A DNA stretch of 64,000 bases from the IMG/VR virus record IMGVR_UViG_3300045988_117831. One strand, written 5' to 3'. This stretch comes from a virus. This document shows, in pieces, positions 31,605 to 46,586 of this stretch. How positions within the stretch are numbered: position 1 is the first letter of the stretch; each line of letters begins with the position of its first letter. The position numbers and the translations under genes are program-made. The notes beneath the pieces were generated by a model that was given only the letters and a program-made list of their open reading frames with translations, did not search any database and had not been told where the DNA came from.

Positions 31605-32444
31605 TCAAATGATCGGTATCTTTCTGCACCTACAGTTAATCGCCCATCCTGGCGGCCCCTGGTCTGCTTTCGGACCCTCCCAAAGTCTGGGGTCATTCAG
31701 CTTGAACCTCTTCCCATCTTTCTCCAGGTGGGTGTGGCGAGGAGTCTTGCCGGCAGAAGAGTGTAGCCACTCGAACTCCTCGACTCCATTTTCCGCCATT
31801 CTCTCATCGCTCAGAGAACTGTAAAGCTTGCTTGTTTGATCTCTTGCGATGAGTTCGATTCGATCTTCAGAAAACTTCCCGACTTTGCGAAGTGCGTTAG
31901 TTATGCCGGAAGTTCCTTGCTCTTCCGGATTCGGGGAAGTCAGAGACAGCATTACTGATGTGTAAATCTTCTCGTGGACTTCCTCTTGGATCTTGGTGAT
32001 GAGAGTATGATTGTAAGTGGTTGCGGCCTCCAGGGTGTTCCTGACGCTCTCATTATACGCAGCTCGTGGCTGATCGACGCCGGCCACCGACAAGCTGTGA
32101 AGGGTCGCGGCAGTGGCGGCTTCTTCGGTCCGGTTGACGAACTCCGGGGCGATCTTGGCCGCGAAACCTTCAAAAATGCGGCTCCATCGCTGCTGTAGGC
32201 TTCGAAGGGTCATCTTGAACAGGACGTTAACGGATTCGTCTCTGGCGAAGAACCGTTCGGCCGCAGGCTGGGACAGCGCCTTCTCAATCTCGTTTCGATA
32301 GTCGGAGATCATGAGCTTGGACATATCCTTCATCTGCTTTCGATACCAGGCCTCGATTCCTGCCGATGGAATTATGGGCTTCCCTCTTCCGACTGGAAGA
32401 GGTGCCCGGCGCTCGCGCTTTTTGGAGGCCTTGAATGCCATCAC
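31605..32444 (-). CDS. head morphogenesis protein, Mu gpF / SPP1 gp7 family
   Basis: C-terminal ..PPGWAINCRCRKIPI-COOH is typical of the MuF family. Overlaps the portal gene stop (ATGA). Confidence 0.75.
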   Translation of the reverse strand: MMAFKASKKRERRAPLPVGRGKPIIPSAGIEAWYRKQMKDMSKLMISDYRNEIEKALSQPAAERFFARDESVNVLFKMTLRSLQQRWSRIFEGFAAKIAPEFVNRTEEAATAATLHSLSVAGVDQPRAAYNESVRNTLEAATTYNHTLITKIQEEVHEKIYTSVMLSLTSPNPEEQGTSGITNALRKVGKFSEDRIELIARDQTSKLYSSLSDERMAENGVEEFEWLHSSAGKTPRHTHLEKDGKRFKLNDPRLWEGPKADQGPPGWAINCRCRKIPII

Positions 32445-34738
32445 TCGCCCCCGAATGGTTTGGTGGTGTCGCCGTTCGCCAGCCAGCGACGGAAAGCGGG
32501 CAGGTCAACTTCATGGATGGAGCCGAGACCATCCCAGCCCGGACGGAAGCAGGACAGATATCCGGACTTCGCATCGTTGATGTTGTTGAAGCCGAGCATA
32601 CACTTGTGCTCGTCAAACTGACCTTCCTTGTTCACTTGGTTGACGACGAAGACCCGTTTGGATCCCAGATTCGGACCGACGAAGCAATCGACTTCATCCC
32701 CATCAGCGCCTTTCGTTCCCTTGATGAACCCGTAGTGGTGTTTCATCTGAACTCGCCAACTCCCATCCTTTCCTTGCCGAATGCTTCCGCGCGGATTTTC
32801 GATCAAGGTGGTTATTCCATTCACCTTGATTCTCTGGAGTTCCGAATGATCACGAGGCCCGATGATGCGGTTGGACGAAAACACCGAAGGCTCCATGCCA
32901 GACACGCCAGGTTGGGACGTGCGCTTTAAGCCAGGCGCATCATTGTGCTCTATGTCTACGCCGTCCGGCGCCTTAATGTCGTCCAGGTCTTGGAGCTTCG
33001 ACAAAAGATCGACCAACAAGTTCCGCAGCTCGGCCTTGGGGTCCGGTCGCGACGGCGGTTCAGCGGCCTCGCTGGCCCCTTCCTCGGCCGCTTTCGCGAG
33101 AGGCTTAGTCCCGCGTGGAGCGGCGGGAACCGGGCCGCCTGCGCCCTCTACGGCGCCCGCCTGGGCTTCGGCTCGCTCGGCTTCGCCTTTCGCCTTTGTC
33201 GACTGTGCACCGGCCTTCTCGAATTCGGCCAGGTTTTCCGGAGACATGCCCGGTTCGGTTTCTGCCTGATCGTCGGTGAGTCGGTTGTAGCCGGAACGCG
33301 GATCGTCGCGCAGACGCTCGCGAACTTCATCCGGAGACACAACGCCAGAGTTGATGTAGATTTCGTCGGTAGCGGCTTTCTTGTTGTTCAATTCGGCTTG
33401 TTGCTGGCTGGACGTGGAGTCTACAGGATTCCAGACGATTTCCAGCTGCACATCGATTTCTTCCGACTTCGCCAGAAGCAAATAGTGGCGTTCAAGAAGT
33501 GGGTCGAATATGTGCTCTTGAATGGACTCCAGTTCTTCGTGATAAGAAATCGTTTCGTGCTCACCAGTGGCATTGAATCCTTTTGGAGAAGTGCCGAGGA
33601 GCTTCGTGGCTGGAGTCTTGGCGATGGCCGCGACCAGCTGATATTGGTTCATGATGATGCTGTCGAAGTCGGCCAGGTTCGTGTCGAACTGCTCCATGCC
33701 TTCGTCAATTCCCAGAACTTTCACGCCGTGGTTATCACGGTTGGCGATCCAGAACGCCAGGCGAGCGTTGAAGGCCTCTTCGTTCGCGATGGCCTTCTCC
33801 ACGTCAACGTGGATGGTGCTGGTTCGCTTCGACATGGCAAGCAGCGGGGCTTCGTTCGCCGTCCGTTCCGCTGCATACACGCGCTCATAGATTCTCTGGG
33901 TGAGCGGGATACCGCCGAAGATGTATGTAGGCTTCAGGATATCTGGCGGCTGCGGTCCACGAACCACCACTAGGTGGCTGCGGTGATATTTTTTGCCGCT
34001 GATAATCCAGAAATCCGGCTCATAGAAATGTTCGGAAGACGGATCTGCCGTCGAGCCAGCAGTGAGCTGCGGCATTGCCCAGTATGGATCGATCTGGGAG
34101 ATTCCCTTGTAGGAGCCGGGCGTGATTCCATCCGGATTGAACGGCTTTTCGTAGTAGTCCGGATCGTCAGACTCCACGACGAACAGCGCGATACGAACGC
34201 CGAAAACGTTCTTGAATCTGTTGAGTTCGACAAGGTTGTCTTTGACGCGAAACTCCATGTCGCGCCGGGCGATCAGCGCGCTTTGTTCATCGGATAGCTT
34301 CCTGCCGTCCGATTTGAGTTCCCATCCGTTCCGTGCTGCGTCTTCCCCAGACATGGAACAAGCTTTGTCCACCAACCAGTGCTGGGAAATGATTGCGCAA
34401 GCTTGGTATCCGATAAACCCTTGGGAATTGTACCAGTCCTGCAACATAGTCGGGACGACATAGGGATTCTGGCCGCCCGCAGCAGCCTTCGCGGCCGGAG
34501 TTGGTCCATCACCATACGCACTATCCATCGCTACAGATAGGCCCGGCTCCAGGAAATCTTTCACACTACGAATGACCGGGGTTTTCTCCGGCTCGACGTT
34601 CCAGCCGCGAATCCTTCCCAGCTTGATCATGGGGTCGAGCGGATCGTGTTGAGGGATTTGTGCGACTTTCTCCGGCGCCGATTCCGAACAGGCAGCATTA
34701 TCCTTTTTGCGCCCGAATATCCAGGAAAGTTTAAACAT
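32441..34738 (-). CDS. portal protein with long acidic C-terminal extension
   Basis: 765 aa. Position directly upstream of the MuF-like gene, and portal-like core. Confidence 0.6.
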   Translation of the reverse strand: MFKLSWIFGRKKDNAACSESAPEKVAQIPQHDPLDPMIKLGRIRGWNVEPEKTPVIRSVKDFLEPGLSVAMDSAYGDGPTPAAKAAAGGQNPYVVPTMLQDWYNSQGFIGYQACAIISQHWLVDKACSMSGEDAARNGWELKSDGRKLSDEQSALIARRDMEFRVKDNLVELNRFKNVFGVRIALFVVESDDPDYYEKPFNPDGITPGSYKGISQIDPYWAMPQLTAGSTADPSSEHFYEPDFWIISGKKYHRSHLVVVRGPQPPDILKPTYIFGGIPLTQRIYERVYAAERTANEAPLLAMSKRTSTIHVDVEKAIANEEAFNARLAFWIANRDNHGVKVLGIDEGMEQFDTNLADFDSIIMNQYQLVAAIAKTPATKLLGTSPKGFNATGEHETISYHEELESIQEHIFDPLLERHYLLLAKSEEIDVQLEIVWNPVDSTSSQQQAELNNKKAATDEIYINSGVVSPDEVRERLRDDPRSGYNRLTDDQAETEPGMSPENLAEFEKAGAQSTKAKGEAERAEAQAGAVEGAGGPVPAAPRGTKPLAKAAEEGASEAAEPPSRPDPKAELRNLLVDLLSKLQDLDDIKAPDGVDIEHNDAPGLKRTSQPGVSGMEPSVFSSNRIIGPRDHSELQRIKVNGITTLIENPRGSIRQGKDGSWRVQMKHHYGFIKGTKGADGDEVDCFVGPNLGSKRVFVVNQVNKEGQFDEHKCMLGFNNINDAKSGYLSCFRPGWDGLGSIHEVDLPAFRRWLANGDTTKPFGGE

Positions 34739-34772
34739 TGTAGTTCCACGTGGTTGTTGACTGTGTGCGCTT

Positions 34773-34801
34773 ATTATAGGGGAAACATCAAACGTTCAAA
34801 A
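34773..34801 (-). promoter_or_regulatory. candidate sigma70 promoter for the portal/head operon (TTGAAC-N16/17-TATAAT on - strand)
   Basis: AT-rich divergent region. Perfect TATAAT at + 34773-34778 (reverse complement). Confidence 0.4.
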
Positions 34802-34862
34802 GAGATTCAAACATATACATCAGATTAACAGTTGCAACTAATCAGTTATGAGAAAATAATTC

Positions 34863-34891
34863 TTTACGGGAACTTTTCGGCAGATTAGACT
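34863..34891 (+). promoter_or_regulatory. TTTACG-17-TAGACT promoter (TTTACT-family variant) for the + block starting at 34919
   Basis: CTTTACG -35 box, 17-nt spacer. Confidence 0.4.
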
Positions 34892-34918
34892 CTAATTATC
34901 AACCAATGGAGATTAAAC

Positions 34919-35320
34919 ATGAATACTCTTTTGCCAATCGTACATATCGTGTTGAAAGACGGCGAAGTTCTGGGCGTATTCGATTGCGACAAATCGGCAA
35001 GATTGTTTCGCGACATGAAAGGCGGCGTGCTGGATTCCTGGATGGTGGAATCGCAGAACAGCTCGCGTTCACGCCTCGTCACGAAAGAAAGCTATGAAGT
35101 CGGTGATCACGTCATATACCTGGACGAGCACGGAGAAGGACACGGCAAGGTTCTGGCGGTTGAGCCACGAGGCGAGCGTGCTGTCGGCGGACGGGAGCTG
35201 TACAACCTATATCAAATCAGCAGCGACGATCCGTCCGTGGAGATTTGGATGCTCGACGCAGACATCATCGGCATTTATCCCGACGAAAAGCGCTTTACTC
35301 CTGGCGAGCAGATGGAATAG
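34919..35320 (+). CDS. hypothetical protein (133 aa)
   Basis: GGAG SD; first gene of the + block. Confidence 0.55.
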   Translation: MNTLLPIVHIVLKDGEVLGVFDCDKSARLFRDMKGGVLDSWMVESQNSSRSRLVTKESYEVGDHVIYLDEHGEGHGKVLAVEPRGERAVGGRELYNLYQISSDDPSVEIWMLDADIIGIYPDEKRFTPGEQME

Positions 35321-35351
35321 ACTCTGCTCATCAACTAAAGAGGGTGACGAA

Positions 35352-35675
35352 ATGGCGAGTATCACCGTATGGATTGCTACTGCTTTCCTTTGCACTGGAG
35401 ACGGCTGCGTCCAGATGCCGGACCATACTAGCAGACGGTTCGACAGTAAGGCTCAGTGCGAAGACGTCATGCTAAGAGCGATTGATAAGATGTGGGAGCG
35501 GCACCAATTGGTCGTCCAGGCCGTTTGCACGCCTTATTTCCTGAGCAGCACTGAGACTCCCGGATTCTACAGTCCGCCGCCCCAGCCACCGACTGGTCTG
35601 AACCGTATGTGGGACAATTGGATTCGCGGCGGCGGTCTGCCATCCTATGAGCCAGGAAGAGGGTGGAGCGAATGA
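35352..35675 (+). CDS. small secreted/membrane protein with N-terminal hydrophobic segment, Cys cluster and Pro-rich C-terminus (107 aa)
   Basis: AGAGGG SD. N-terminus MASITVWIATAFLCTGDGC, later ..SPPPQPPTG... The ORF-track start at 35094 is unsupported upstream. Confidence 0.5.
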   Translation: MASITVWIATAFLCTGDGCVQMPDHTSRRFDSKAQCEDVMLRAIDKMWERHQLVVQAVCTPYFLSSTETPGFYSPPPQPPTGLNRMWDNWIRGGGLPSYEPGRGWSE

Positions 35676-35875
35676 AGCCGCGCCGTCCGGAAGTTCGGGT
35701 GAGCCTGGAAACCGCCCTCTGGATGTCGACATCCGCTGCACTCCTCGCGGCGATTATCGCCGGCGCGGTTTTCCCGCCTTCGACGATTCAATGTCCGGAA
35801 GAAAGACCGCCTGCGACCGAGCGTTTTCACCATCCGGAAAACAGCAAGTTCTTTCCTCACATACAAAAGGGATAG
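35672..35875 (+). CDS. small membrane protein (68 aa, one TM)
   Basis: ATGA overlap with the previous stop; GGTGGAG SD; TM segment ALWMSTSAALLAAIIAGAVF. Confidence 0.45.
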   Translation: MKPRRPEVRVSLETALWMSTSAALLAAIIAGAVFPPSTIQCPEERPPATERFHHPENSKFFPHIQKG

Positions 35876-35880
35876 TGAGT

Positions 35881-36192
35881 ATGAAGTATGTAGTCCTGAA
35901 GCTGACGGTCCGTGGCATGTCGCGTGAAGTTCCTGTGATCTTCCCCGACCTCATCAGTCATGTGAACATGGCCGCGAGTGCAATTGTGGCCCTCGATGCT
36001 GAGTGCGAAGACTTCAAGAAGGCCGGCGACAAAGTTGATATCACCGCAGTATCGGCAGGATTCCTGTCTTCGATGGATATCGATGCGAAATGCAACGGCC
36101 AGTCGGACTCTTTGGGCGGTCTGAAGTCGAGGGAATCAGAGGATGATGGTCTCATCCGAATGATCGACTATACCCATGGTTACGTCGGTTAA
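35881..36192 (+). CDS. hypothetical protein (103 aa)
   Basis: AAGGGA SD; starts MKYVVLKLTVRG... Confidence 0.5.
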   Translation: MKYVVLKLTVRGMSREVPVIFPDLISHVNMAASAIVALDAECEDFKKAGDKVDITAVSAGFLSSMDIDAKCNGQSDSLGGLKSRESEDDGLIRMIDYTHGYVG

Positions 36193-36433
36193 GGCGCGCT
36201 GCCTTTCATGCGACAGACGCGCCGTCTTGGACGAACGAAAACTGAAGTCGAAGCGCCCACCAGTCTGTAGATGGTGTGGAGGATCGACCTGGCGAATAGT
36301 CATGGAAGTTACCTGTTATAGTTCGTGTAGACCCTATCCCCACAGGGCTGGCTCGGTCGGATGCATTCTGGATCGATCAGGCTCAACAATAATCGTCGAA
36401 CTTCCTGGAGTCCCAGACGATTTTCCTTTTTGA
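36176..36433 (+). CDS. Cys-rich putative zinc-ribbon protein (85 aa)
   Basis: CLSCDRR..CRWCGG (CxxC..CxxC). Overlaps the previous gene by 17 nt. Confidence 0.35.
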   Translation: MVTSVKARCLSCDRRAVLDERKLKSKRPPVCRWCGGSTWRIVMEVTCYSSCRPYPHRAGSVGCILDRSGSTIIVELPGVPDDFPF

Positions 36434-36440
36434 GGTGAAC

Positions 36441-36731
36441 ATGGCTACTAAGGCCGATTTGGAACTGGAAGTTCAGCAGCTTCGACGAGTAGTGAAATCT
36501 CGCGAGCAAGAAATTGAAGAGTTGCACGGACGACTGGAGCGCCATCGAGACATCATTCGTCGCGTCCGGCTCTATCTTTGGAGCCGTCTGCTGATCCATC
36601 GCCGGACGGCCGAAACCCTGGAAGTCGGCGACAGCATCGCCAAGACCATCGCCGCGAAAACGGCACAAGGCCGCGAACGACGTTCTAGGCATCATTCAGC
36701 ATTTGAACGACTACTGCGACAGCTATGCTGA
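36441..36731 (+). CDS. hypothetical coiled-coil/basic protein (96 aa)
   Basis: GAGGTG SD. Confidence 0.45.
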   Translation: MATKADLELEVQQLRRVVKSREQEIEELHGRLERHRDIIRRVRLYLWSRLLIHRRTAETLEVGDSIAKTIAAKTAQGRERRSRHHSAFERLLRQLC

Positions 36732-36892
36732 GTACGACTACAACGACGGCGCTGAGCATGGGTTCAAGATCAATAGCGACATTTATTGATTGTCTTCGAC
36801 CCGACGAACGGTAGTGAGAAATCTCTACCGTTTTTCCATTTCTGGCGTATAGTCAACTCATCGAAACGAACTTTCCAAACAGGAGAATCGAC

Positions 36893-37825
36893 ATGAACGC
36901 AGCAGAGAATCTGTTCACCGGCTTCGAAGACCTGGGTGATGACTTCGCTACCGTAGAGATCAACAACGAAGCGCCGAAGACCCTGGAAGACGTGTCCATG
37001 GGTGCCCGCCCGAACTCCCGGAAGGAAGTGAAGCTGTATCGCGACAAGTGCACCAAATGCGCAGGCACCGGCCTGTACCGTGGCCCTTCGTCTTATGGTC
37101 GCGCCTGCTTTGCCTGCGGCGGCGTCGGATACAAAGAGTATAAAACCAGCCCGGAGCAGCGCGCCAAGAGCCGTGCTAAGGCGGTAGAAAAGCGCATCGA
37201 GAAAATCTGTAGCGCTGCGCAAGAGCGCGACCTCAAAATTAAGGCCTTCGAAGCCGCGCACCCGGACATCATCGAGTGGTGGACTGGAAATTCCTTCAGC
37301 TTCGCTCAGAGCCTTCAGGAGTCGTTGTATAAATACGGCTCCTTGACAGAAAATCAGATCGCTGCTGCGAAGCGCGCCATCGAAAACCTCGCCAAGTATC
37401 GCGAGAAAGTGGCCGCGCAGGAAGCTGCTGCGCCGACTCTGGACATTTCCGGCATCGAGAAAGCGTTTGAGAAGGCGAAAGAGTCTGGTATCAAGCGCCC
37501 GAAAATCCGCCTAGCTGGCGAAGGCGAGGAGCCGCTCATCGTTGTTGTGAAAGAGGCTAGCGCTCACAGCCGGAACGCCGGTAGCCTGTACGTCCTGGGC
37601 GACATCTACCTCGGCCGGATCACCAATGGCAAATTCATCAAGAGTCGCGACTGCACCGATACTGAGCACGACGACGTTCTGAAGATGTTCGAAAAGCCGA
37701 TGGAATCGGCAGTCGCCTACGGTCGGAAGACTGGTCAGTGCTCCTGCTGCGGTCGCGAGTTGACCAACCACGCATCCATCGAAATGGGCATTGGCCCGAT
37801 CTGTGCCGGAAAATTCTTCGGATGA
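36893..37825 (+). CDS. protein with N-terminal C4 zinc ribbon and C-terminal CxCCGR..GxGPxC zinc-binding motif (310 aa)
   Basis: CTKCAGTG..CFACGG at the N-terminus. The C-terminal GQCSCCGRELTNHASIEMGIGPICAGKF resembles a short phage zinc-binding module. Confidence 0.6.
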   Translation: MNAAENLFTGFEDLGDDFATVEINNEAPKTLEDVSMGARPNSRKEVKLYRDKCTKCAGTGLYRGPSSYGRACFACGGVGYKEYKTSPEQRAKSRAKAVEKRIEKICSAAQERDLKIKAFEAAHPDIIEWWTGNSFSFAQSLQESLYKYGSLTENQIAAAKRAIENLAKYREKVAAQEAAAPTLDISGIEKAFEKAKESGIKRPKIRLAGEGEEPLIVVVKEASAHSRNAGSLYVLGDIYLGRITNGKFIKSRDCTDTEHDDVLKMFEKPMESAVAYGRKTGQCSCCGRELTNHASIEMGIGPICAGKFFG

Positions 37826-37926
37826 TCTACACGACCATCAAAGCCATGGCCTGGTTCGCCCTTCTATGGGCGACCGGCTTATCAATCGTAACTCTCACAA
37901 TACATTTCTGCTACTGAGGATTATCC

Positions 37927-38514
37927 ATGAGCACCGTCCATGACCCGATGAAGGACAAGATCACTCTGCACGGCCTGGGGTTCATTCAGGTCCAACTTCC
38001 GGCCGGTCGCCTCCATGTTTGGCACCCGGAGCTGCCGCGTCGGCTTTGCTTCAATCACTCGGCCATCCACGATCATCGATTCGATTTCGAGTCTCTGGTG
38101 CTGGTTGGATCGATGGAGAACATCAACTATTACGAGGATCGCTCGGCTTGCCTCGGCGAAATGACTCACGAAGGTTATGAGCATTCTTCGGCTCGCCAGG
38201 CTTGCGGCGGTCGCGGCTGGAATCCTGTGGGCTCTGTATGTCTGCGCCAGAGGCAAAGATTTGTTATCGACGCCGGGCAGCAATATTCGATGTCTGCGTA
38301 CGTTCCGCACAGGACGAATCCGCTCGGTGACGGCCGCGTGGCGACTCTCATGCGGAAAGGCAGTGTTCATAAATGGCCTGCCACTTCCTATGTGACGCTG
38401 GGCGTCGATCCTGAAACCGACTTCGACCGTTACCAGTGGTCTGTTCCGACGCTCTGGGAAGTCGTCATTGATGTTCTCGGCGGCGCAGAGTTTCAAATCC
38501 CCTCCATCCCGTAA
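37927..38514 (+). CDS. hypothetical protein with His-rich cupin-like metal-binding motif (195 aa)
   Basis: ..LHVWHPE..IHDHRFDFESLVLVG.. (HxH..E..G spacing like cupin motif 1). Confidence 0.5.
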   Translation: MSTVHDPMKDKITLHGLGFIQVQLPAGRLHVWHPELPRRLCFNHSAIHDHRFDFESLVLVGSMENINYYEDRSACLGEMTHEGYEHSSARQACGGRGWNPVGSVCLRQRQRFVIDAGQQYSMSAYVPHRTNPLGDGRVATLMRKGSVHKWPATSYVTLGVDPETDFDRYQWSVPTLWEVVIDVLGGAEFQIPSIP

Positions 38515-38530
38515 CCGAAGGAATCTGAAA

Positions 38531-38968
38531 ATGAAAAAGTTCTGTGTCGACATCACTAATGGTCTGGCCGGCTTCATCATCTGGGGCGGCGCAATCGTCC
38601 TGGCTGCTACCGTCTTCGTCATCGGCCCGCTGGCCCTCCTGCTGACCGGCGCCTGGGTTGTGTGTACGTCCGTAGTGTTCGCCCTCTGGTTCGCCGTCGC
38701 CGGCATCTACGAAGAGTCGCAAAAGCAGACCGAGTATCTTAAATCCCTGGTGTCGCTCCAGGCGTGTGAACGCGGCATCGGCTACGGCCCAGGAGACGCC
38801 GGTTGCAGCGCTAGCGCTCCGGCCGTTCCCGTAGAGCCCAAGCTCAGCCATCCCAAACTGAAGCCGGGCGCACAGCTCGCGGCCGCTGTCTTGTTCTTTG
38901 CCGCCCTCATCCTCTTGCTGGTAGCAGGTGATTGGATCTGGAATTTCTTCCAGTCGATGCCGAAATAG
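38531..38968 (+). CDS. membrane protein, 3-4 TM (145 aa)
   Basis: GAAGGAA SD; hydrophobic segments at the N-terminus, centre and C-terminus. Confidence 0.55.
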   Translation: MKKFCVDITNGLAGFIIWGGAIVLAATVFVIGPLALLLTGAWVVCTSVVFALWFAVAGIYEESQKQTEYLKSLVSLQACERGIGYGPGDAGCSASAPAVPVEPKLSHPKLKPGAQLAAAVLFFAALILLLVAGDWIWNFFQSMPK

Positions 38969-38981
38969 TGGAAGAAAGTGC

Positions 38982-39010
38982 TTTACTTCCATTCTGAATG
39001 AAGGCAGAAT
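38982..39010 (+). promoter_or_regulatory. TTTACT-17-CAGAAT promoter of the conserved family, plus conserved leader
   Basis: GTGCTTTACTTCCATTCTGAATG is identical over 23 nt to the copy at 43098. Confidence 0.5.
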
Positions 39011-39054
39011 AGCTCCATTGAAATGCGAAACCCTTCAGACAAAAGGAACCGACC

Positions 39055-39834
39055 ATGGCCGACCAGAACGAATTCACCCCTGAAGCCATCGAGAAGGCGA
39101 AAGACCGCATCCGCAAACTGACCGCCATGGCAGCCGACTCTTCCAGTCCGCACGAAGCGGCCATCGCAGCCGAGCGTGTGAAGAAGTTGAAGGACAAATA
39201 TGACCTTCACGACTTCGAAGCTACCGGCGAGATTCGCGAAGAGTTCGATGAGCAAATTGCCACTCGTTACTATTCCGCAATCCCGAACTGGATGAAGTTT
39301 TTCTCAGTGGCCGTGGCGACGTACAATGACTGCATCATGGATTTCGCCGGTGGCATCAACAACCACAGAGCATCGGCTAAGGCATCCAGGAGCGCCCGCG
39401 ACGGAAGCACTACCAAGCGCTGGGGTCATGCCGTACGCTTCAAAGGCTACAAGTCGGACGTTGAGCTGGCGGTGAACATGTTCAACTCCCTGGTCGAGGC
39501 CATTGATCGTCTGTGTCGGGAGTATCAGAAGGCGCAAGGGTACGAACGTTTCAACGTAAAGGTTGCCGCGCAATTCAAACTGGCCGCGACCCAGGAAATC
39601 AGCTATCGCCTTCAGTCCATAACCAGGAAGCGTATGGAGCTGGTATCTTCTGCCGGAACGTCTCTGGTTGTGGTGAAGGAAGCTGCGGTTCACGAACATT
39701 TCGGCGATCCTGGCTACAAGAAGTCCAATGTTACGAAGCTCATGCGTCTGGACGATAGCGACGGTCGGCGCGCCTTCAATGCAGGGGCCAATGCCGGGCG
39801 CAATATGGAAATCGTTCGGTCGGTGGAGGATTGA
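39055..39834 (+). CDS. DUF2786-like N-terminal domain protein (259 aa)
   Basis: ..AIEKAKDRIRKLTAMAADSSSPHEAAIAAERVKKL.. matches the DUF2786 helix pattern. Confidence 0.6.
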   Translation: MADQNEFTPEAIEKAKDRIRKLTAMAADSSSPHEAAIAAERVKKLKDKYDLHDFEATGEIREEFDEQIATRYYSAIPNWMKFFSVAVATYNDCIMDFAGGINNHRASAKASRSARDGSTTKRWGHAVRFKGYKSDVELAVNMFNSLVEAIDRLCREYQKAQGYERFNVKVAAQFKLAATQEISYRLQSITRKRMELVSSAGTSLVVVKEAAVHEHFGDPGYKKSNVTKLMRLDDSDGRRAFNAGANAGRNMEIVRSVED

Positions 39835-40235
39835 TTATGAACTTCCCTAGCGACAAAGTGATGCTGCGAATCGTCCAATCCATCCTCGCGATCCTCATCG
39901 GGATCGCTTGGGCCTGCGCCGACTATGGAGTCGTGGCTGCTGAACTTCCTCCATCTCTGCAAGCCCATCCCGCGAGGCCAGGGCACAGCGAAGTCTCTGC
40001 CCGCGACCCTAGGTCGGTCGAGGCCGAAAAAGCGCGGGAAGAGGCCTTAGAATATGTCCTGTCGCTACGCCCGGAAGTTATCGAGGCGAAAGCCCGCTTC
40101 GCAGCTGAGGCGGCGCAGCACGGAATGTCAACCGAGAAATACGCTGAGATGCAGCGCCTGTCAAAGCTGATGTCCGGCATACTTGTGCCGTTTGCGTTCC
40201 TTGCGTTCATCTTCATCATGCTGCTCAGACTGTAA
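39831..40235 (+). CDS. membrane protein with N- and C-terminal TM segments (134 aa)
   Basis: ATGA overlap with the previous stop; C-terminal ILVPFAFLAFIFIMLL. Confidence 0.5.
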   Translation: MIMNFPSDKVMLRIVQSILAILIGIAWACADYGVVAAELPPSLQAHPARPGHSEVSARDPRSVEAEKAREEALEYVLSLRPEVIEAKARFAAEAAQHGMSTEKYAEMQRLSKLMSGILVPFAFLAFIFIMLLRL

Positions 40236-40278
40236 TAGGCCTGAGCAGCGAACAACCGCCAACCAAAAGAGAATCATC

Positions 40279-40662
40279 ATGAAGAAAGAACCGATTCGAC
40301 TCAGCTCCATGGCCTCGGCCCGTGCCATCGATGCGGAATTCGCATTCCGGATGGACGAGTTCATGGCGCGCGTCGCTAAAGAGCACGAAGCGCTCGCCGC
40401 CCGCGTCGCTAAAGAGCACGAAGCGCTCGCCGCCCGACTGAATGCCGAGCATCTGGTGCTTTGGGACGAAATCCGCGCTGTCGCCGGCCTGAGCGCCACC
40501 GACTTCCCGAACATCTCCATGGCGCACGACACTGCCGATGGGAAGCTCTATGTCATGGATGCCGACGAGCTGGAGCGCGTCCGCCAGGCATGTCCCTGCC
40601 CGGACTGCGAAGCCGCACGCGCCGAAAGCATGCCGTCGCAAGCCAGTGGAGGTATTCACTGA
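40279..40662 (+). CDS. hypothetical protein containing a tandem 11-aa duplication and C-terminal Cys pair (127 aa)
   Basis: AAAGAGA SD; ARVAKEHEALAARVAKEHEALAARL; ..CPCPDC... Confidence 0.5.
   Translation: MKKEPIRLSSMASARAIDAEFAFRMDEFMARVAKEHEALAARVAKEHEALAARLNAEHLVLWDEIRAVAGLSATDFPNISMAHDTADGKLYVMDADELERVRQACPCPDCEAARAESMPSQASGGIH
40369..40434 (+). repeat. perfect 33-bp tandem direct repeat x2 inside the CDS
   Basis: CGCGTCGCTAAAGAGCACGAAGCGCTCGCCGCC twice, in frame. Confidence 0.9.
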
Positions 40663-40877
40663 TGCCGATCAAGCTATCTTCCGTGCATGTACGGATCGCC
40701 GGGCCTGATGGCAGGGTCTTGGCCGAAGGCCGCGCCGAGTTCTCCGGAACTGCATTCTGGCTGGCCGCGCAACGCGAAATGAAGCTAAAGCACCTCGTCG
40801 GAACTTCCTTCGAAGGCGCCCTGACCTACCTGGCCGACAACGGCTACAACGTTACATTCAGCAAAGGTGAAAAGTAA
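40662..40877 (+). CDS. hypothetical protein (71 aa)
   Basis: GGAGGT SD; coupled to the previous gene. Confidence 0.5.
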   Translation: MPIKLSSVHVRIAGPDGRVLAEGRAEFSGTAFWLAAQREMKLKHLVGTSFEGALTYLADNGYNVTFSKGEK

Positions 40878-41260
40878 TGATCGAAAGACATGTAGTGGAT
40901 GCGGAAGTCGTCGAGCGGATTCGTTCTCTTCGCATTCGGTTCAACGTCCTGGACGAAACCCTGCAACGGGCCGTTGACATGGCCATGCTCAGCCACCAGA
41001 AAGCTCTGCAAGACCTGCGGACCTATGAGGCCCAGCTCTGGGACGCGCTCAACGCTCGTTACGGTCTGTCCGTCGAAAAGACCTATGACCTGCGGTTCGA
41101 AGGCGAAGAAGCCGTGCTGGTCGAGGTTCCGCCAGGCGATGGCCAAGGTGATGATTTCATCGTCGAGTCGGAAGCCGAAGCGCTCGCGGCCGGCCAGGAA
41201 GCCCTGGGAGTCGGCGAGGCCGTTGCGTCGACACTCAGCGCCAGGAACCGCACCGAGTAA
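40877..41260 (+). CDS. hypothetical acidic protein (127 aa)
   Basis: ATGA overlap with the previous gene; last gene of the + block. Confidence 0.5.
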   Translation: MIERHVVDAEVVERIRSLRIRFNVLDETLQRAVDMAMLSHQKALQDLRTYEAQLWDALNARYGLSVEKTYDLRFEGEEAVLVEVPPGDGQGDDFIVESEAEALAAGQEALGVGEAVASTLSARNRTE

Positions 41261-41263
41261 GAC

Positions 41264-41296
41264 CCGAAGCCCGGAGCGATCCGGGCTTTTCTATGT
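41264..41296 (+). terminator. intrinsic terminator closing the + block, convergent with terL
   Basis: GAAGCCCGGA-gcga-TCCGGGCTT followed by TTCTATGTTT. Confidence 0.6.
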
Positions 41297-42679
41297 TTAG
41301 AAGTCGAAGAAGCCTTTGGGCTTCCGGATCGGCAGAATGGCCGACATAATCACCGAGTCAGCGATGTTCGGTGACTTGATTTTGCGTTTCTCGCGCATAT
41401 CCTTCTTGGACTCGACTTTGAACCGGCCGTTCATGTCCAGGTCTTTGCGCGGTGACGAAAGTTCGATACACAGTTGATTTAGTTTGTCCGGGTGAATCGT
41501 TTCAGAGTTGATCGAAATCAATTCGTCAAATGGATAAACCTTTCCATGCTCAACCGCTTCATAAGTCTTCCGGAATCGGGTCGCGACTTCTTCCCACTTC
41601 TGCGCCTTGATGTTGCTGAAGTGGTCTTTGTTCTTGATAATCGTGTGCGGCAGCTTCATGTAGACGTCATCAGGCTTATCGACAGCGCCGCCCGCGTTGA
41701 ATGGGTCATAGATCAGTTTGAAGTCTGGGCTGGCATCGTTCAACTCGGCGAACTTCGAACCGACATGAGCGCCGACGCCGATGGAGTCATAAGTGACCGA
41801 TGCGCCTTTCATCTTCGCCAGGTTGTAAACGCGGCTGGACGACTTGAGCAGTTCATCCTCCAGGCCGTCCCATTCGTCAACTTCCATGATGACGTTGCCG
41901 TGCATGAGCGTAGTGGCGTTCGCATCCTCGCCGTCGTCCGCAACGTCGAAGCCGATGCGCTTCGATCCGGCCGGCTCCCAGCCGAGTTTCTTGTGGGCGT
42001 CGATGGCCGCGAGAATGAACTTGAGGTTGATGACGGATTTGTCGCCTCCAGTCTTCGGAATCCCGCCATAAATGTGCTCGGCCTGCTCCCGGTCGCGTTC
42101 ATAGGCTTCGTGAATCACTTTGAGCATCGTCTCACTGAGGAACGGATTTTCGTTCCAGTTGATCATCTTGACGCAGGAGTCTTTCGGGGGCTTGACCACG
42201 AAGTTCTGATACACGAAATCGGTGACTTCGTTAGGGTTGAAGATGATCCAGATTTCTGAGTTCTCTTTCCGGATGGTCGGCTCGATGACTTCCCACTGCT
42301 CCTGGGTCAGGTAGTGAGCTTCCTCAAGCCAGAGAATGTCGATGCCTTCGGTAGACTTGATTTCCGACAGGTTACGGGCGATCCCATAGAATAGGAATTC
42401 TGATCCGGTCATCTTGTGCTTGATCGAGTTCTTCGTGAAAATGAACTCGCCGTTGTACTCAGAATTCTCAATCTTGTCCTTGATCAACGTGTAGACCGAT
42501 TCGCTGATGCGGTTCTGAAACTGGCGAGCACAGAGGAACTTGAGTCTATAGTTGGCCGCGAGGTAAACGGCGATACCGCCTGCGTCGTGTGACTTCGAAG
42601 ACGCCCGGCCGCCATAAATGACTTTGTAACGGGCGCGAGTTCGCCAGACTGCTCGCAGTGCAGGGTTGAGTTTGTACAT
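41297..42679 (-). CDS. terL: terminase large subunit (Terminase_3 / PBSX-type)
   Basis: Walker A ..YKVIYGGRASSKSHD.., then ..ILWLEEAHYL.. and a C-terminal nuclease region. Start taken at the ATG giving MYKLNPAL..; an alternative GTG lies at 42742. Confidence 0.85.
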   Translation of the reverse strand: MYKLNPALRAVWRTRARYKVIYGGRASSKSHDAGGIAVYLAANYRLKFLCARQFQNRISESVYTLIKDKIENSEYNGEFIFTKNSIKHKMTGSEFLFYGIARNLSEIKSTEGIDILWLEEAHYLTQEQWEVIEPTIRKENSEIWIIFNPNEVTDFVYQNFVVKPPKDSCVKMINWNENPFLSETMLKVIHEAYERDREQAEHIYGGIPKTGGDKSVINLKFILAAIDAHKKLGWEPAGSKRIGFDVADDGEDANATTLMHGNVIMEVDEWDGLEDELLKSSSRVYNLAKMKGASVTYDSIGVGAHVGSKFAELNDASPDFKLIYDPFNAGGAVDKPDDVYMKLPHTIIKNKDHFSNIKAQKWEEVATRFRKTYEAVEHGKVYPFDELISINSETIHPDKLNQLCIELSSPRKDLDMNGRFKVESKKDMREKRKIKSPNIADSVIMSAILPIRKPKGFFDF

Positions 42680-42781
42680 TCTAATCAATCCGGTGTCAGC
42701 AATAGGTCGAGTATATCGACGCCGCAACAGACGGTCGAGCACAACCGTTCGTCGGTGAACATAATTTTATTGTTAATACAC

Positions 42782-42810
42782 TTTACTTCCATTCTGACCA
42801 ACGGCATAAT
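42782..42810 (+). promoter_or_regulatory. TTTACT-17-CATAAT promoter plus conserved leader
   Basis: Conserved family member, upstream of the ATG at 42850. Confidence 0.55.
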
Positions 42811-42849
42811 CTCTTCATCGAAACGAACAAACACCTGGAGGGTAAGACG

Positions 42850-43100: not shown

Positions 43101-43129
43101 CTTTACTTCCATTCTGAATAGCGTCATAA
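43101..43129 (+). promoter_or_regulatory. TTTACT-17-CATAAT promoter plus conserved leader
   Basis: Closest to the family consensus; leader ..CTCTTCATCGAACGCGAAACACTCCAAAACAGAGGAA.. Confidence 0.55.
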
Positions 43130-43174
43130 TCTCTTCATCGAACGCGAAACACTCCAAAACAGAGGAACGCAGAA

Positions 43175-44377: not shown

Positions 44378-44566
44378 GTGCAGAAATACGCCATGTCCCA
44401 TATCCCTCGCCCAGGAACGCTCCAGTTCGAGTTCGAATGTCTCGCTGCGGCCCACTTCGGCATCAATGATGGCGCCTTATCTATGTCGTCCGATGGCGAG
44501 CGTTACTGCAACGAACACATCGACTGGCTCTGGCGGCAATTCCTGTCTTCAAAAGGTTTCAGATAA
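44378..44566 (+). CDS. small hypothetical protein (62 aa, GTG start)
   Basis: GAGGATAA SD 9 nt upstream. Confidence 0.4.
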   Translation: MQKYAMSHIPRPGTLQFEFECLAAAHFGINDGALSMSSDGERYCNEHIDWLWRQFLSSKGFR

Positions 44567-44580
44567 TCTGAAGAAAATGC

Positions 44581-44609
44581 TTTACTCGATGAGGTGGCTG
44601 AGGTATAGT
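44581..44609 (+). promoter_or_regulatory. TTTACT-17-TATAGT promoter plus conserved leader; -10 embedded in an 8-bp inverted repeat (GATGAGGT..ACCTCATC)
   Basis: Family member with a possible operator. Confidence 0.5.
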
Positions 44610-44651
44610 TACCTCATCGAACGCGAAACACTCCAAAAAGAGGATTGCGAC

Positions 44652-44903
44652 ATGACTAGCTCCAAATGGAACATCGGCAGAAACGACACCATCGCAGTCG
44701 AGGCCGTAAACAGCCGCGAAGATTTCCGCTGGAACGGCAAGGTTCGCGTCATCCACTACAGCGCCGGTCAAATCGTCAACATCATCGAGTTCTATCACCA
44801 CGATCTGGACTGGGCGATCAAGAATTTCGGCATCAAGCTGAAGGCTATCTCCAAAGGCCTGGAAATACTCCACACCTGCTACTTCGGGAAGTATGTCAAG
44901 TGA
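44652..44903 (+). CDS. hypothetical protein (83 aa)
   Basis: AGAGGA SD. Confidence 0.5.
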   Translation: MTSSKWNIGRNDTIAVEAVNSREDFRWNGKVRVIHYSAGQIVNIIEFYHHDLDWAIKNFGIKLKAISKGLEILHTCYFGKYVK

Positions 44904-45100
44904 TCGTCCAATTCGATTCCCAAGAAGAGAAAATCATCAGCCTGAGAACGCTGTCCAAGTATCGTCGCGCCGGTGGCAAGTTCGCGCCGGTGGACGGAAC
45001 TCAGACCGGTCCCTGGGGTCCAGTAGACAACGCGCTCTGGGCGAAGTTCGAAGCCGAAGTCAGGGCAGAATACATCCGCAAACAGGAGCGTAAAGCATGA
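44900..45100 (+). CDS. hypothetical protein (66 aa, GTG start coupled via GTGA)
   Basis: Open frame with translational-coupling geometry. Confidence 0.4.
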   Translation: MIVQFDSQEEKIISLRTLSKYRRAGGKFAPVDGTQTGPWGPVDNALWAKFEAEVRAEYIRKQERKA

Positions 45101-45312
45101 TCAAGCAAGACCTGTACAAGCAGATCGCCTTCGCGGCGATTGGCTCCGGCATCAAGATGTTCGTCAAGCTGTACTGCAACGATACCACCCTGGAAGTCAT
45201 CGGCGTCGAGGAAGCCCACATTGATGGGACGATTCGTCTGCGTTACACTGGCTACGCAGATGGAGTTGGCTTTAACTTCTTCGCCGACGAAATTGACGTG
45301 GTGATGGTATGA
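45097..45312 (+). CDS. hypothetical protein (71 aa)
   Basis: ATGA overlap. Confidence 0.5.
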   Translation: MIKQDLYKQIAFAAIGSGIKMFVKLYCNDTTLEVIGVEEAHIDGTIRLRYTGYADGVGFNFFADEIDVVMV

Positions 45313-45518
45313 GCAGGAAGCCGGCACCAAGCGGCTGGGCGCAACCCGGCAATGCTCGCAAAGTCCACTTCTTCACGTCGGACGGCCGCAGTCTGTGCAA
45401 GCGCTGGCTGTATCTCGGCAAGACTTACAGCGAGCTGCCCGACCTGGAAATCACCTGCGCGATCTGCGAGAAGAAGCGCCAGAGTCCTTTCGAGAAATAC
45501 TGCGACACCATTCTCTAA
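45309..45518 (+). CDS. hypothetical Cys-containing protein (69 aa)
   Basis: ATGA overlap; ..CAICEKK.. Confidence 0.45.
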   Translation: MSRKPAPSGWAQPGNARKVHFFTSDGRSLCKRWLYLGKTYSELPDLEITCAICEKKRQSPFEKYCDTIL

Positions 45519-45549
45519 CTTTCAAATCTTCCAAAACCGAGGAACAGTT

Positions 45550-46521: not shown

Positions 46522-46536
46522 GAATCAGGGCATAAT
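46507..46536 (+). promoter_or_regulatory. TTTACT-18-CATAAT promoter plus leader with a CCGGCT..AGCCGG hairpin
   Basis: Family member; overlaps the 3' end of the previous ORF. Confidence 0.5.
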
Positions 46537-46586
46537 CTCTTCACCGGCTGAGAAGCCGGACCAGAAGTCCAAAAAGGAATCTCGAA

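What the first reader, a model, noticed from the sequence alone, without database searches (positions are those of the whole stretch)
34739..41296. 6.5-kb opposite-strand block of about 14 small genes wedged between the portal gene and the large terminase gene
terL (41297-42679, - strand) is normally directly upstream of, and co-oriented with, the portal gene (32441-34738, - strand). Here a convergent + strand block separates them. The block has its own promoter (34863, and an internal family promoter at 38982) and terminator (41264-41296). It encodes several membrane proteins (35352-35875, 38531-38968, 39831-40235), two or three zinc-ribbon proteins (36176-36433, 36893-37825, 40279-40662), a His-cluster protein (37927-38514) and a DUF2786-like protein. 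This looks like an accessory or host-takeover island (superinfection exclusion, anti-defence, membrane remodelling) inserted into the packaging module. None of its products has a known function.
Basis: partly seen in the sequence, partly recalled or inferred. Interest (0 to 1): 0.58.

Follow-up and report, generated by a model that had tools for sequence, protein, structure and literature searches.

The report
Conserved Pbunavirus early-and-lysis gene block
The opposite-strand block between the portal and large terminase genes is real, but it is a conserved, already mapped part of PB1-like Pseudomonas phage genomes, and it includes a known RNA-polymerase-binding protein and the phage's outer-membrane lysis protein (spanin), so it is not a newly inserted accessory island.

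Summary
The window is a Pbunavirus (PB1-like Pseudomonas aeruginosa myophage). The + strand block at 34.9-41.3 kb corresponds to phage 14-1 genes gp17 to gp04. It holds 15 ORFs, all intact in divergent relatives. The 14 tested are under purifying selection; one is frameshifted here.

Portal and terL are correct. The promoters at 34863 and 38982 coincide with transcription starts mapped by ONT-cappable-seq in 14-1 (P012, P006). The terminal hairpin is real.

- The block is present in about 95% of roughly 300 Pbunavirus records and has normal GC and no flanking repeats.
- Smaller versions sit in the same place in other Lindbergviridae-like lineages (Carpasinavirus, Kylevirus, two metagenomic contigs). 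The outgroup Obolenskvirus keeps terS-terL-portal contiguous, so the separation is old.
- Two products have published roles. The 36893-37825 protein is 98% identical to 14-1 gp12, reported to bind the RNA polymerase alpha subunit. The 39837-40235 protein is the PB1-family unimolecular spanin with the AWAC lipobox.
- The experimentally defined Pbunavirus anti-defence island (14-1 gp80-88) lies on the other side of terL.

The remaining genes, including a cupin and a DUF2786/DUF7168 protein, are uncharacterised. Verdict: ordinary and already known.

The parts
32441..34738 (-). Portal protein gene (765 aa; Phage_portal_3 domain plus C-terminal InPase domain)
   Evidence: Pfam. Homologue of the Pa193 gp19 portal solved by cryo-EM (PMC11456595).
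34766..34815 (-). Portal promoter region, homologous to 14-1 P013 (sigma70 type; TTGAAC...TATAAT). Inferred TSS about 34765.
34849..34898 (+). Leading promoter of the block, homologous to 14-1 P012 (sigma70 type). -35 TTTACG at 34863-34868, -10 TAGACT at 34886-34891, inferred TSS about 34899.
34919..35320 (+). gp17 homologue (133 aa, acidic). Weak homologues are the first wedge gene in Kylevirus and in contig L013.
34995..35044 (+). Homologue of 14-1 P011, a non-sigma70 'CTGGG' promoter lying inside gp17. In this window the core reads CTGGA.
35281..35330 (+). Homologue of 14-1 P010 (50 of 50 bases identical). Inferred TSS about 35331.
35352..35675 (+). gp16 homologue (107 aa, 4 Cys, weakly hydrophobic N-terminus). 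dN/dS 0.03.
35672..35875 (+). 67-aa protein with one transmembrane segment (Ab27 ORF34)
35881..36192 (+). gp15 homologue (103 aa)
36176..36433 (+). 85-aa protein with two CxxC pairs (zinc-ribbon-like). Unannotated in many records but under purifying selection.
36441..36788 (+). gp14 homologue (coiled-coil), disrupted here by a 1-bp insertion near 36657. The open frame ends at 36731.
36803..36836 (+). Internal intrinsic terminator hairpin, homologous to 14-1 T004. It ends the gp17-gp13 transcription units.
36810..36860 (+). Homologue of 14-1 P009 (sigma70 type, -10 TATAGT), upstream of the gp12 homologue. Inferred TSS about 36861.
36893..37825 (+). gp12 homologue (310 aa): two CxxCxGxG motifs and a C-terminal DUF6011 domain. 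98% identical to 14-1 gp12, which is reported to bind the RNA polymerase alpha subunit.
37822..37917 (+). gp11 homologue, a 31-aa hydrophobic peptide. Intact in F8, Ab27, P23 and 14-1.
37927..38514 (+). gp10 homologue (195 aa), a cupin-fold protein with six invariant His residues
38248..38297 (+). Homologue of 14-1 P007 (sigma70 type), lying inside the cupin gene
38531..38968 (+). gp09 homologue (145 aa, three transmembrane segments). Called 'holin' in a few records without any experiment.
38968..39017 (+). Homologue of 14-1 P006, a member of the GCTTTACTTCC sigma70 promoter family. -35 TTTACT at 38982, -10 CAGAAT at 39005, inferred TSS about 39018.
39055..39834 (+). gp08 homologue (259 aa, DUF2786 + DUF7168). 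The only wedge protein shared by all five lineages examined. dN/dS 0.023.
39377..39426 (+). Homologue of 14-1 P005 ('CTGGG' motif, GCGCTGGGGT retained), lying inside gp08 upstream of the spanin gene
39837..40235 (+). Unimolecular spanin (132 aa): lipoprotein signal with AWAC lipobox (codons at 39906-39917) and a C-terminal transmembrane segment. Homologue of 14-1 gp07.
40279..40662 (+). gp06 homologue (127 aa), carrying an in-frame perfect 33-bp tandem duplication at 40369-40436
40662..40877 (+). gp05 homologue (71 aa)
40877..41260 (+). gp04 homologue (127 aa, acidic). A weak homologue is the last wedge gene in contig L013.
41266..41289 (.). GC-rich 10-bp hairpin between the convergent gp04 and terL genes. 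A T-tract follows on the + strand only.
   Evidence: F8 and PTLAW2 annotate terminators here. The longest 14-1 read from P003 ends at this position.
41297..42679 (-). Large terminase subunit gene, a solitary - strand gene between two + strand gene sets
42703..42752 (-). terL promoter region, homologous to 14-1 P002 (called sigma70 type). Inferred TSS about 42702.

Best explanation
The block is the Pbunavirus counterpart of phage 14-1 genes gp17 to gp04. It is a genus-core module of small genes, split into several transcription units and read by the host RNA polymerase, that sits between the portal and terL genes on the opposite strand.

Shown:
- The window's promoter and terminator sequences match those mapped in the near-identical phage 14-1. 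There, sigma70-type starts lie before gp17 (P012), gp12 (P009) and gp08 (P006) and inside gp10 (P007). The start before gp16 (P010) was mapped but not assigned a promoter type.
- Two further starts carry the phage-specific CTGGG motif. The tested example from this block, P011, is silent without infection.
- An internal intrinsic terminator follows gp13/gp14.
- The longest transcripts end at the hairpin that faces terL.

Inferred:
- The sigma70 promoters fire early. Promoter P001, from the same sequence family, is strong in uninfected E. coli and P. aeruginosa.
- They deliver gp12, which is reported to bind the RNA polymerase alpha subunit and inhibit host transcription.
- They also deliver the conserved DUF2786/DUF7168 protein, a cupin metalloprotein and several small proteins of unknown role.
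- The internal CTGGG promoters keep the distal genes expressed later. These include the unimolecular spanin, which is needed for outer-membrane disruption at lysis.

The block is therefore a mixed takeover-plus-lysis module fixed in the lineage. It is not a mobile or variable accessory island.
For: Identity and prevalence:
- The region is 84-99% identical to about 300 Pbunavirus records, and 285 of 299 carry at least 80% of the block in one place.
- Gene-by-gene correspondence to Ab27, 14-1 and F8 is clear.
- The 14 ORFs tested are under purifying selection, and the 31-aa ORF is intact in relatives.

Transcription:
- The published map of 14-1 has 10 TSS, 3 TTS and transcription units TU003-TU012 inside the block.
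- All of the 50-bp promoter regions are found at the homologous window positions.
- Promoter-family copies at 38982, 42782 and 43102, plus a related copy near 60590, are all on the + strand. P001 of this family is active without phage, whereas the CTGGG promoters P011 and P032 are not.

Products:
- The gp12 homologue is 98% identical to 14-1 gp12. Alpha-subunit binding and inhibition of transcription are cited in PMC10914365 and PMC6748951.
- The only AWAC lipobox in any of the six frames of the window lies in the 132-aa ORF 39837-40235, which also has a C-terminal transmembrane segment. This matches the PB1 u-spanin family of PMC6139136, including the listed lengths.

Age of the arrangement:
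- The same wedge with homologous genes occurs in Carpasina, Kyle, L011 and L013.
- terS-terL-portal is contiguous in Obolenskvirus AB1.

Not structural: no block protein is among the Pa193 virion components gp19-gp47.
Against: - No time-resolved expression data for these genes could be read. The ONT-cappable-seq samples pooled all time points, so 'early' is inferred from promoter type.
- The gp12 claim rests on secondary citations. The primary paper (Van den Bossche 2014) is not in the library.
- The u-spanin assignment is bioinformatic. Only the AWAC lipobox was tested, and that was in a T1 gp11 chimera.
- The terminal hairpin was not called as a termination site in the 14-1 data set.
- In this window the P011 core reads CTGGA, not CTGGG.
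- Twelve or thirteen of the 15 products still have no assigned function, so 'takeover plus lysis' describes only part of the block.
Confidence: 0.8

Rival explanations
1. The block is a recently acquired accessory island (a set of morons) for anti-defence or superinfection exclusion, inserted into a previously contiguous packaging module.
For: - It has its own promoters and terminator.
- The outgroup has contiguous terS-terL-portal.
- There is one indel hot spot. A methyltransferase gene sits between gp14 and gp12 in 14-1 and P23 but not here.
- One deposited genome (vB_PaeM_1662, marked UNVERIFIED) lacks 1.6 kb of the block. Some genes may therefore be dispensable.
Against: - The block is present in about 95% of Pbunavirus records at 84-99% identity.
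- The 14 ORFs tested are under purifying selection.
- GC content is ordinary, and there are no bounding repeats.
- The wedge and its gene order are shared with other genera.
- PADLOC gave no hits above noise.
- The experimentally defined anti-defence island is gp80-88, and the other named anti-defence genes (Bdi1, TadIII, ZadI-1, DadIII-1) all lie outside the block.
Confidence: 0.07
2. The block is mainly the phage's dispersed lysis cassette. The three-TMD protein (38531-38968) would be the holin or pinholin, 39837-40235 the u-spanin, and the small TMD proteins (35672-35875, 37822-37917) antiholin-like regulators. The endolysin is encoded 26 kb away, at the end of the tail operon.
For: - The u-spanin assignment is solid at sequence level.
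- A three-TMD, 145-aa protein lies two genes upstream of it, and some records call it a holin.
- No membrane protein is annotated next to the endolysin (14-1 gp47 is flanked by a tail-fibre-associated gene and a terminator; the window ORF list there shows none).
- The CTGGG promoter P005 lies just upstream of the spanin gene.
Against: - Pfam, PHROGs and NCBIfam give no holin family hit for 38531-38968.
- The UNVERIFIED genome 1662 lacks this gene entirely.
- Most block genes encode soluble proteins (gp12, cupin, DUF2786 protein, gp17, gp15, gp06-gp04).
- The main promoters are constitutive sigma70 types, which is unusual for lysis genes.
Confidence: 0.15
3. The block encodes morphogenesis or packaging helpers, such as a small terminase or assembly chaperones. 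On this view its position between terL and portal is functional.
For: - It lies between two packaging genes in every lineage examined.
- The DUF2786/DUF7168 protein is universally retained there and is very constrained.
Against: - TerS is assigned elsewhere in Pbunavirus (PBanzai_081, as in E217).
- The Pa193 virion and assembly components are gp19-gp47 only.
- In a different phage type (contig L012), the DUF2786/DUF7168 homologue sits among replication-proximal small genes.
- The fold occurs in many unrelated phages.
- The cupin's homologues lie in early regions of temperate prophages.
Confidence: 0.04

Closest known systems
Phage 14-1 / PB1 genome region gp04-gp17 (Pbunavirus, Lindbergviridae), with its ONT-cappable-seq transcription map (Putzeys et al. 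2024, PMC10914365)
   Same: The gene order, promoter sequences, internal terminator and flanking portal and terL genes are the same. Over the region, identity to 14-1 is about 93-96% in two aligned pieces. gp12 is 98% identical at protein level.
   Different: This genome lacks the methyltransferase gene gp13. It has a frameshifted gp14 homologue, a 33-bp duplication in the gp06 homologue, and CTGGA instead of CTGGG at the P011 position.
14-1 gp12, an RNA polymerase alpha-subunit-binding transcription inhibitor (Van den Bossche et al. 2014, as cited in PMC10914365 and PMC6748951)
   Same: 305 of 310 residues are identical. The CxxCxGxG pair and the C-terminal DUF6011 domain are the same.
   Different: Nothing material at sequence level. 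Activity was not tested for this allele. The mechanism (inhibition versus redirection to CTGGG promoters) is unresolved in the literature.
PB1-family unimolecular spanins (Kongari et al. 2018, PMC6139136); prototype T1 gp11
   Same: It has an N-terminal lipoprotein signal with the family-specific AWAC lipobox, a C-terminal transmembrane anchor, and a length of 132 aa, as listed for KPP12, LBL3 and LMA2.
   Different: There is no sequence similarity to T1 gp11. The periplasmic domain is predicted to be helical rather than beta-rich. The gene lies far from the endolysin, inside a block driven by sigma70 promoters.
Pbunavirus anti-defence island (14-1 gp80-88: Bdi1, Bdi2, gp82, anti-END gp88; PMC13307970)
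   Same: Both are clusters of small genes on the same strand, driven by the same sigma70 promoter family, and both lie next to terL.
   Different: The island is a different locus, on the other side of terL (about 44.4-47.3 kb in the window). It is more variable: only 51 of 298 records reach 95% identity, against 174 of 299 for the block. No block gene has been reported as an anti-defence gene.
Canonical terS-terL-portal-MuF packaging/head module, for example Obolenskvirus AB1
   Same: terL is homologous (about 51% identical). The AB1 genes annotated as portal and head morphogenesis follow it in the canonical order. Their homology to the window's portal and MuF proteins was not tested here.
   Different: In this lineage the three packaging genes are dispersed. 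terL is a solitary gene, and an opposite-strand wedge separates it from the portal gene.

Membership tests
Pbunavirus gp04-gp17 core module | Nucleotide homology and collinearity with reference Pbunavirus genomes | tested here: met
   Identity is 84-99% over the full block, and 285 of 299 records cover at least 80% of it. Genes map one to one onto Ab27, 14-1 and F8.
Pbunavirus gp04-gp17 core module | Promoter and terminator positions as mapped in 14-1 | tested here: met
   All ten internal promoter regions and the T004 hairpin are found at homologous positions. One core motif is altered (the P011 homologue reads CTGGA).
14-1 gp12 family (RNA polymerase alpha-subunit binder, DUF6011) | Sequence identity to 14-1 gp12 and presence of DUF6011 | tested here: met
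   98% identity. DUF6011 scores E 9e-15, above the Pfam cut-off.
14-1 gp12 family (RNA polymerase alpha-subunit binder, DUF6011) | Physical binding to RpoA and inhibition of transcription | not testable with these tools
   Known only from citations of Van den Bossche 2014. The primary paper is not held.
Unimolecular spanin, PB1 family | N-terminal lipoprotein signal ending in the AWAC lipobox | tested here: met
   The sequence IGIAWAC ends at residue 27. It is the only AWAC in all six frames of the window.
Unimolecular spanin, PB1 family | C-terminal transmembrane anchor and the family's size | tested here: met
   A transmembrane segment spans residues 111-129. The length of 132 aa equals the listed KPP12, LBL3 and LMA2 u-spanins.
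Unimolecular spanin, PB1 family | Requirement for outer-membrane disruption at lysis | not testable with these tools
   Only the lipobox was tested, in a T1 gp11 chimera.
Holin (for 38531-38968) | Small membrane protein with 1-4 transmembrane segments and a charged C-terminus | tested here: inconclusive
   Three hydrophobic segments are present. A 55-residue loop between the second and third segments is atypical.
Holin (for 38531-38968) | Match to a curated holin family, or adjacency to the endolysin gene | tested here: not met
   Pfam, PHROGs and NCBIfam give no holin hit. The endolysin gene is at 8210-8872, about 30 kb away in the window.
Accessory island / moron cluster | Variable presence among close relatives | tested here: not met
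   285 of 299 records carry it. The only exceptions found are a methyltransferase indel and one deletion in an UNVERIFIED record.
Accessory island / moron cluster | Atypical base composition or bounding repeats | tested here: not met
   GC is 0.52-0.59, against about 0.55 for the whole window. No repeat pair bounds the block.
Accessory island / moron cluster | Own promoter and terminator | tested here: met
Known anti-phage defence or anti-defence proteins | Match to PADLOC models, or identity with published Pbunavirus anti-defence genes | tested here: not met
   PADLOC gives only noise-level hits. The published genes map outside the block.
Cupin superfamily (for 37927-38514) | Double-stranded beta-barrel fold with a His-rich metal site | tested here: met
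   The AlphaFold2 model has pLDDT 89. All top Foldseek PDB hits are cupins, although TM-scores are only 0.3-0.5. Six His residues are invariant across 29 homologues. The substrate is unknown.
DUF2786 / DUF7168 family (for 39055-39834) | Pfam domain matches above the gathering score | tested here: met
   DUF2786 scores 44.3 bits against a cut-off of 23.9. DUF7168 scores 39 bits against 25.5. There is no solved-structure relative.

The most novel reading that the evidence does not exclude
The terL-portal wedge could be an ancient, family-defining regulatory cassette. On this reading, the RNA polymerase alpha-subunit binder gp12 and the universally retained, highly constrained DUF2786/DUF7168 protein together reprogram host RNA polymerase towards the phage-specific CTGGG promoters. 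The cassette's placement would then couple the early-to-late switch to expression of the packaging genes, because it is divergent from the portal promoter and convergent on terL. In 14-1 the terL transcripts overlap the 3' end of gp04.

A weaker variant is that the cupin gp10 contributes to the recently reported thymidine hypermodification of Pbunavirus DNA, whose biosynthetic genes are unknown.
Probability: 0.08. Interest if true: 0.55.

Novelty: already known. Interest (0 to 1): 0.2.

Why it matters
Pbunaviruses are among the phages most often used therapeutically against P. aeruginosa, so correct annotation of their conserved genes has practical value.

This check places two functions inside a block that most GenBank records label entirely 'hypothetical'. 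These are the RNA-polymerase-binding protein gp12 and the unimolecular spanin. It also separates the block from the true anti-defence island next door.

It shows that the split of terL from the portal gene is a lineage hallmark and not a recent insertion. About a dozen conserved genes remain without a function, notably the DUF2786/DUF7168 protein and a cupin. Both are widespread in other phages and are reasonable targets for knockouts.

Tried and rejected
Searches that gave no functional lead:
- Pfam, PHROGs, NCBIfam and PADLOC scans of the block proteins gave only DUF6011, DUF2786/DUF7168 and unnamed PHROGs.
- Sequence searches of the PDB for gp12, gp08 and gp10 found nothing meaningful.
- The AlphaFold2 model of gp08 had no PDB fold match. 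In BFVD it matched only other uncharacterised phage proteins.
- Rfam found no RNA family in 34-43.5 kb.

Tools or sources not available:
- The primary gp12 paper and the E217 terminase paper.

Other points:
- The simple sigma70 scan picked a different, probably irrelevant site (34832-34860). It missed the experimentally supported promoters.
- I considered a small terminase hidden in the block. I rejected this because TerS is assigned elsewhere in the genus.
- I considered a link between the cupin and the sugar-like thymidine hypermodification. The only support is that sugar isomerases appear among distant cupin hits. Its homologues are common in temperate prophage early regions.
- I looked for att-like or bounding repeats and found none.

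Full report
**What the window is.** The 8 kb around the finding is 97-99% identical to many Pseudomonas aeruginosa myophages of the genus Pbunavirus (PB1-like; family Lindbergviridae). About 300 records match, and 283 of them cover at least 80% of the query. The annotations of Ab27, phiDCL-PA6, PTLAW2, 14-1 and F8 map gene for gene onto the window. The block corresponds to 14-1 gp17 down to gp04, read on the window's + strand.

**Check of the observation.**
- Flanking genes: 32441-34738(-) carries Phage_portal_3 (E 4e-99) plus a C-terminal InPase domain. 31605-32444(-) is a Mu F-like head protein. 41297-42679(-) is a Terminase_3 large terminase.
- Gene content: 15 + strand ORFs lie between them.
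- Selection: against phage F8 (about 85% identity), the 14 tested ORFs show purifying selection, with dN/dS of 0.02-0.20. This includes the often unannotated 36176-36433 ORF, which scores 0.09 in its frame against 3.3 and 0.87 in the other frames.
- The 31-aa ORF 37822-37917 was not in that test. It stays intact in F8 with only conservative changes.
- Corrections: 35352-35875 is two genes, and only the second has a clear transmembrane segment. The 40279-40662 product has only three cysteines. The gp14 homologue has a 1-bp insertion near 36657.
- The DUF2786 call is right, and DUF7168 is also present. The 'His-cluster' protein is a cupin (see below).

**Promoters and terminators.** A published ONT-cappable-seq study of 14-1 (PMC10914365; supplementary tables in the bioRxiv version) lists ten transcription starts inside this block.
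- P012, P009, P007 and P006 are called sigma70-type.
- P011 and P005 carry the phage-specific 'CTGGG' motif.
- P010, P008, P004 and P003 are untyped.
- Three termination sites are listed, including the intrinsic terminator T004 after gp13.
- Transcription units run gp17-gp13, gp12(-gp10) and gp08(-gp07). A long read from P003 covers gp07-gp04 and ends at the hairpin facing terL.

All of these 50-bp regions are found at homologous window positions.
- P006 belongs to a sequence family (GCTTTACTTCC...CAKAAT...TCATCGAAACG). Other window copies lie at 42782 and 43102, with a related copy near 60590, all on the + strand.
- The 14-1 member P001 is strongly active in uninfected E. coli and P. aeruginosa. 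The CTGGG promoters P011 and P032 are silent there.
- The terminal hairpin at 41266-41289 is strong (-18.8 kcal/mol, z = -4.3). A T-tract follows it on the + strand only. It was not called as a termination site in the 14-1 data.
- In 14-1 the terL transcript runs about 95 nt into the 3' end of gp04.

**Genome context.** Beyond terL the + strand small genes resume (14-1 gp02, gp01, gp90...gp77).
- terL is therefore a single gene on the late strand, embedded in about 13 kb of opposite-strand small genes.
- TerS is encoded elsewhere (PBanzai_081, as in E217). The packaging genes are dispersed, and this is known for the genus.
- The experimentally defined Pbunavirus anti-defence island is 14-1 gp80-88, on the far side of terL. 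The other named anti-defence genes also lie outside the block.
- By the same megablast measure, the anti-defence region is more variable than the block. At 95% identity or more there are 51 of 298 records against 174 of 299. At 80% coverage or more there are 254 against 285.

**Is it an insertion?** Within the genus it is not.
- The block is near-universal, has ordinary GC, and has no bounding repeats.
- At deeper level, the same layout occurs in four other lineages. That layout is the portal gene, then an opposite-strand wedge, then a solitary terL, then more small genes on the wedge's strand.
  - Xanthomonas phage Carpasina has 4 wedge genes. Its record starts at terL, so the far side was not seen.
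  - Pantoea phage Kyle has 5 wedge genes.
  - Two 66-72 kb metagenomic contigs have 11 and 9 wedge genes.
- The DUF2786/DUF7168 protein is shared by all of these lineages (36-48% identity to the window protein).
- gp17-like, gp12-like and gp04-like proteins are shared by subsets, in the same relative order.
- The outgroup Obolenskvirus AB1 (terL about 51% identical) has terS-terL-portal-head morphogenesis contiguous and co-oriented.
- The separation is therefore derived but old, and Pbunavirus has an expanded version of it.
- Local plasticity exists. A methyltransferase gene sits between gp14 and gp12 in 14-1 and P23.
- One UNVERIFIED record (vB_PaeM_1662) has a 1622-bp deletion between 22-nt repeats at 37461 and 39083. 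It fuses the N-terminal 197 residues of gp12 in frame to gp08. It removes the gp12 C-terminus, gp11, the cupin gene and the three-TMD protein gene.

**Products with published roles.**
- gp12 homologue: the 310-aa protein at 36893-37825 is 98% identical to 14-1 gp12. Two papers cite that protein as binding the RNA polymerase alpha subunit and inhibiting transcription. One suggests it may redirect the polymerase to the CTGGG promoters. It has two CxxCxGxG motifs and a C-terminal DUF6011 domain.
- u-spanin: the 132-aa protein at 39837-40235 has an N-terminal signal ending in AWAC-Cys27 and a C-terminal transmembrane segment. AWAC occurs nowhere else in the six-frame translation.
- Kongari et al. 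2018 define a PB1 family of unimolecular spanins with exactly this unusual lipobox. The family includes 14-1, F8, KPP12, LBL3 and Ab27, at 132-133 aa. They showed the lipobox works when placed in T1 gp11.

**Other products.**
- Cupin (37927-38514): it has more than 200 homologues at about 55% identity, many in Pseudomonas chromosomes, with six invariant histidines.
  - In two prophage contexts it lies among early-region genes near the integrase.
  - The AlphaFold2 model (pLDDT 89) matches only cupins, such as dioxygenases and sugar isomerases, with modest TM-scores.
- DUF2786/DUF7168 protein (39055-39834): it is the most constrained gene in the block (dN/dS 0.023).
  - Its model (pLDDT 81) has no PDB match.
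  - It resembles uncharacterised proteins of many unrelated phages, including PhiW-14 and phiM12.
  - In a PurZ-encoding phage-like contig, the homologue sits among replication-proximal genes.
- The three-TMD protein (38531-38968) is labelled 'holin' in a few records, without evidence. No family model supports that label.
- No block protein is among the Pa193 virion components.

**Most likely mechanism.** On entry, host RNA polymerase-sigma70 transcribes the block from the P012, P009 and P006 homologues, and probably from the untyped P010 homologue. This step is inferred from promoter type and from the activity of family member P001.
- It would yield gp12, which acts on the polymerase alpha subunit (a published claim).
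- It would also yield the DUF2786/DUF7168 protein, the cupin and the small proteins.
- The internal CTGGG promoters, which need infection-specific factors, then sustain the distal genes, including the spanin used at lysis (inferred).
- Rival readings are a recent accessory or anti-defence island, a mainly lysis cassette, and packaging helpers. They are weighed in the rival-explanations section, and none fits as well.

**Verdict.** The 'inserted accessory island of unknown function' reading is only partly right. The feature is a known, conserved part of a heavily sequenced phage genus, so interest is low. The remaining open questions concern individual uncharacterised genes, not the arrangement.

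Noticed in passing
window 32441-34738 (-), residues 635-753 of the product: The portal protein carries a C-terminal Pfam InPase ('inorganic pyrophosphatase') domain (E 3e-43). The same fusion is present in the portals of metagenomic relatives L011 and L013. Its role in a portal protein is unclear.
   Followed up: partly
window 36441-36788, around 36657: The gp14 homologue has a 1-bp insertion in an A-run relative to Ab27, truncating the reading frame at 36731. This could be a real pseudogene or a sequencing error.
   Followed up: partly
window 40369-40436: A perfect 33-bp in-frame tandem duplication (11 aa, RVAKEHEALAA) lies in the gp06 homologue. It is absent from Ab27, 14-1 and F8.
   Followed up: partly
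window 35038-35042: The core of the P011-type phage-specific promoter reads CTGGA here, instead of the CTGGG found in 14-1. This promoter may be weakened in this phage.
   Followed up: no
window 37461-37482 and 39083-39104; locus L009 (vB_PaeM_1662): A 22-nt direct repeat pair, 1622 bp apart, matches the end points of a deletion in the UNVERIFIED record vB_PaeM_1662. The deletion creates an in-frame fusion of gp12 (N-terminal part) to gp08. It removes the gp12 C-terminus, gp11, the cupin gene and the three-TMD protein gene.
   Followed up: yes
window 36785-36793; L004 (14-1 gp13) and L010 (P23): This is an indel hot spot just upstream of the internal terminator. 14-1 and P23 carry a methyltransferase gene of about 0.5 kb here that is absent from the window.
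   Followed up: partly
window 42782-42817, 43102-43137, about 60590-60645 (+): Further copies of the strong sigma70 promoter family GCTTTACTTCC...CAKAAT...TCATCGAAACG drive the small-gene clusters beyond terL and elsewhere. The 'phage promoters' of the unrelated phage YuA share the GCTTTACTTC element (Table S3 of the 14-1 study).
   Followed up: partly
14-1 coordinates 2229-2359, equivalent to window about 41165-41295: In the published 14-1 data, the terL transcript (TU002) extends about 95 nt into the 3' end of the convergent gp04 gene. The longest block read stops 2 nt beyond the terL stop codon. The convergent transcripts therefore overlap by about 130 nt.
   Followed up: no
locus L012 (Nevskiaceae MAG contig, 47 kb): A phage-like contig encoding a PurZ-type adenylosuccinate synthetase and a dATP/dGTP pyrophosphohydrolase, which are hallmarks of Z-genome (diaminopurine) phages. 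It carries a DUF2786/DUF7168 homologue among its small genes.
   Followed up: no
window about 44400-47300 (+): This is the region corresponding to the published Pbunavirus anti-defence island (14-1 gp80-88). It is more divergent among relatives than the block under study.
   Followed up: partly
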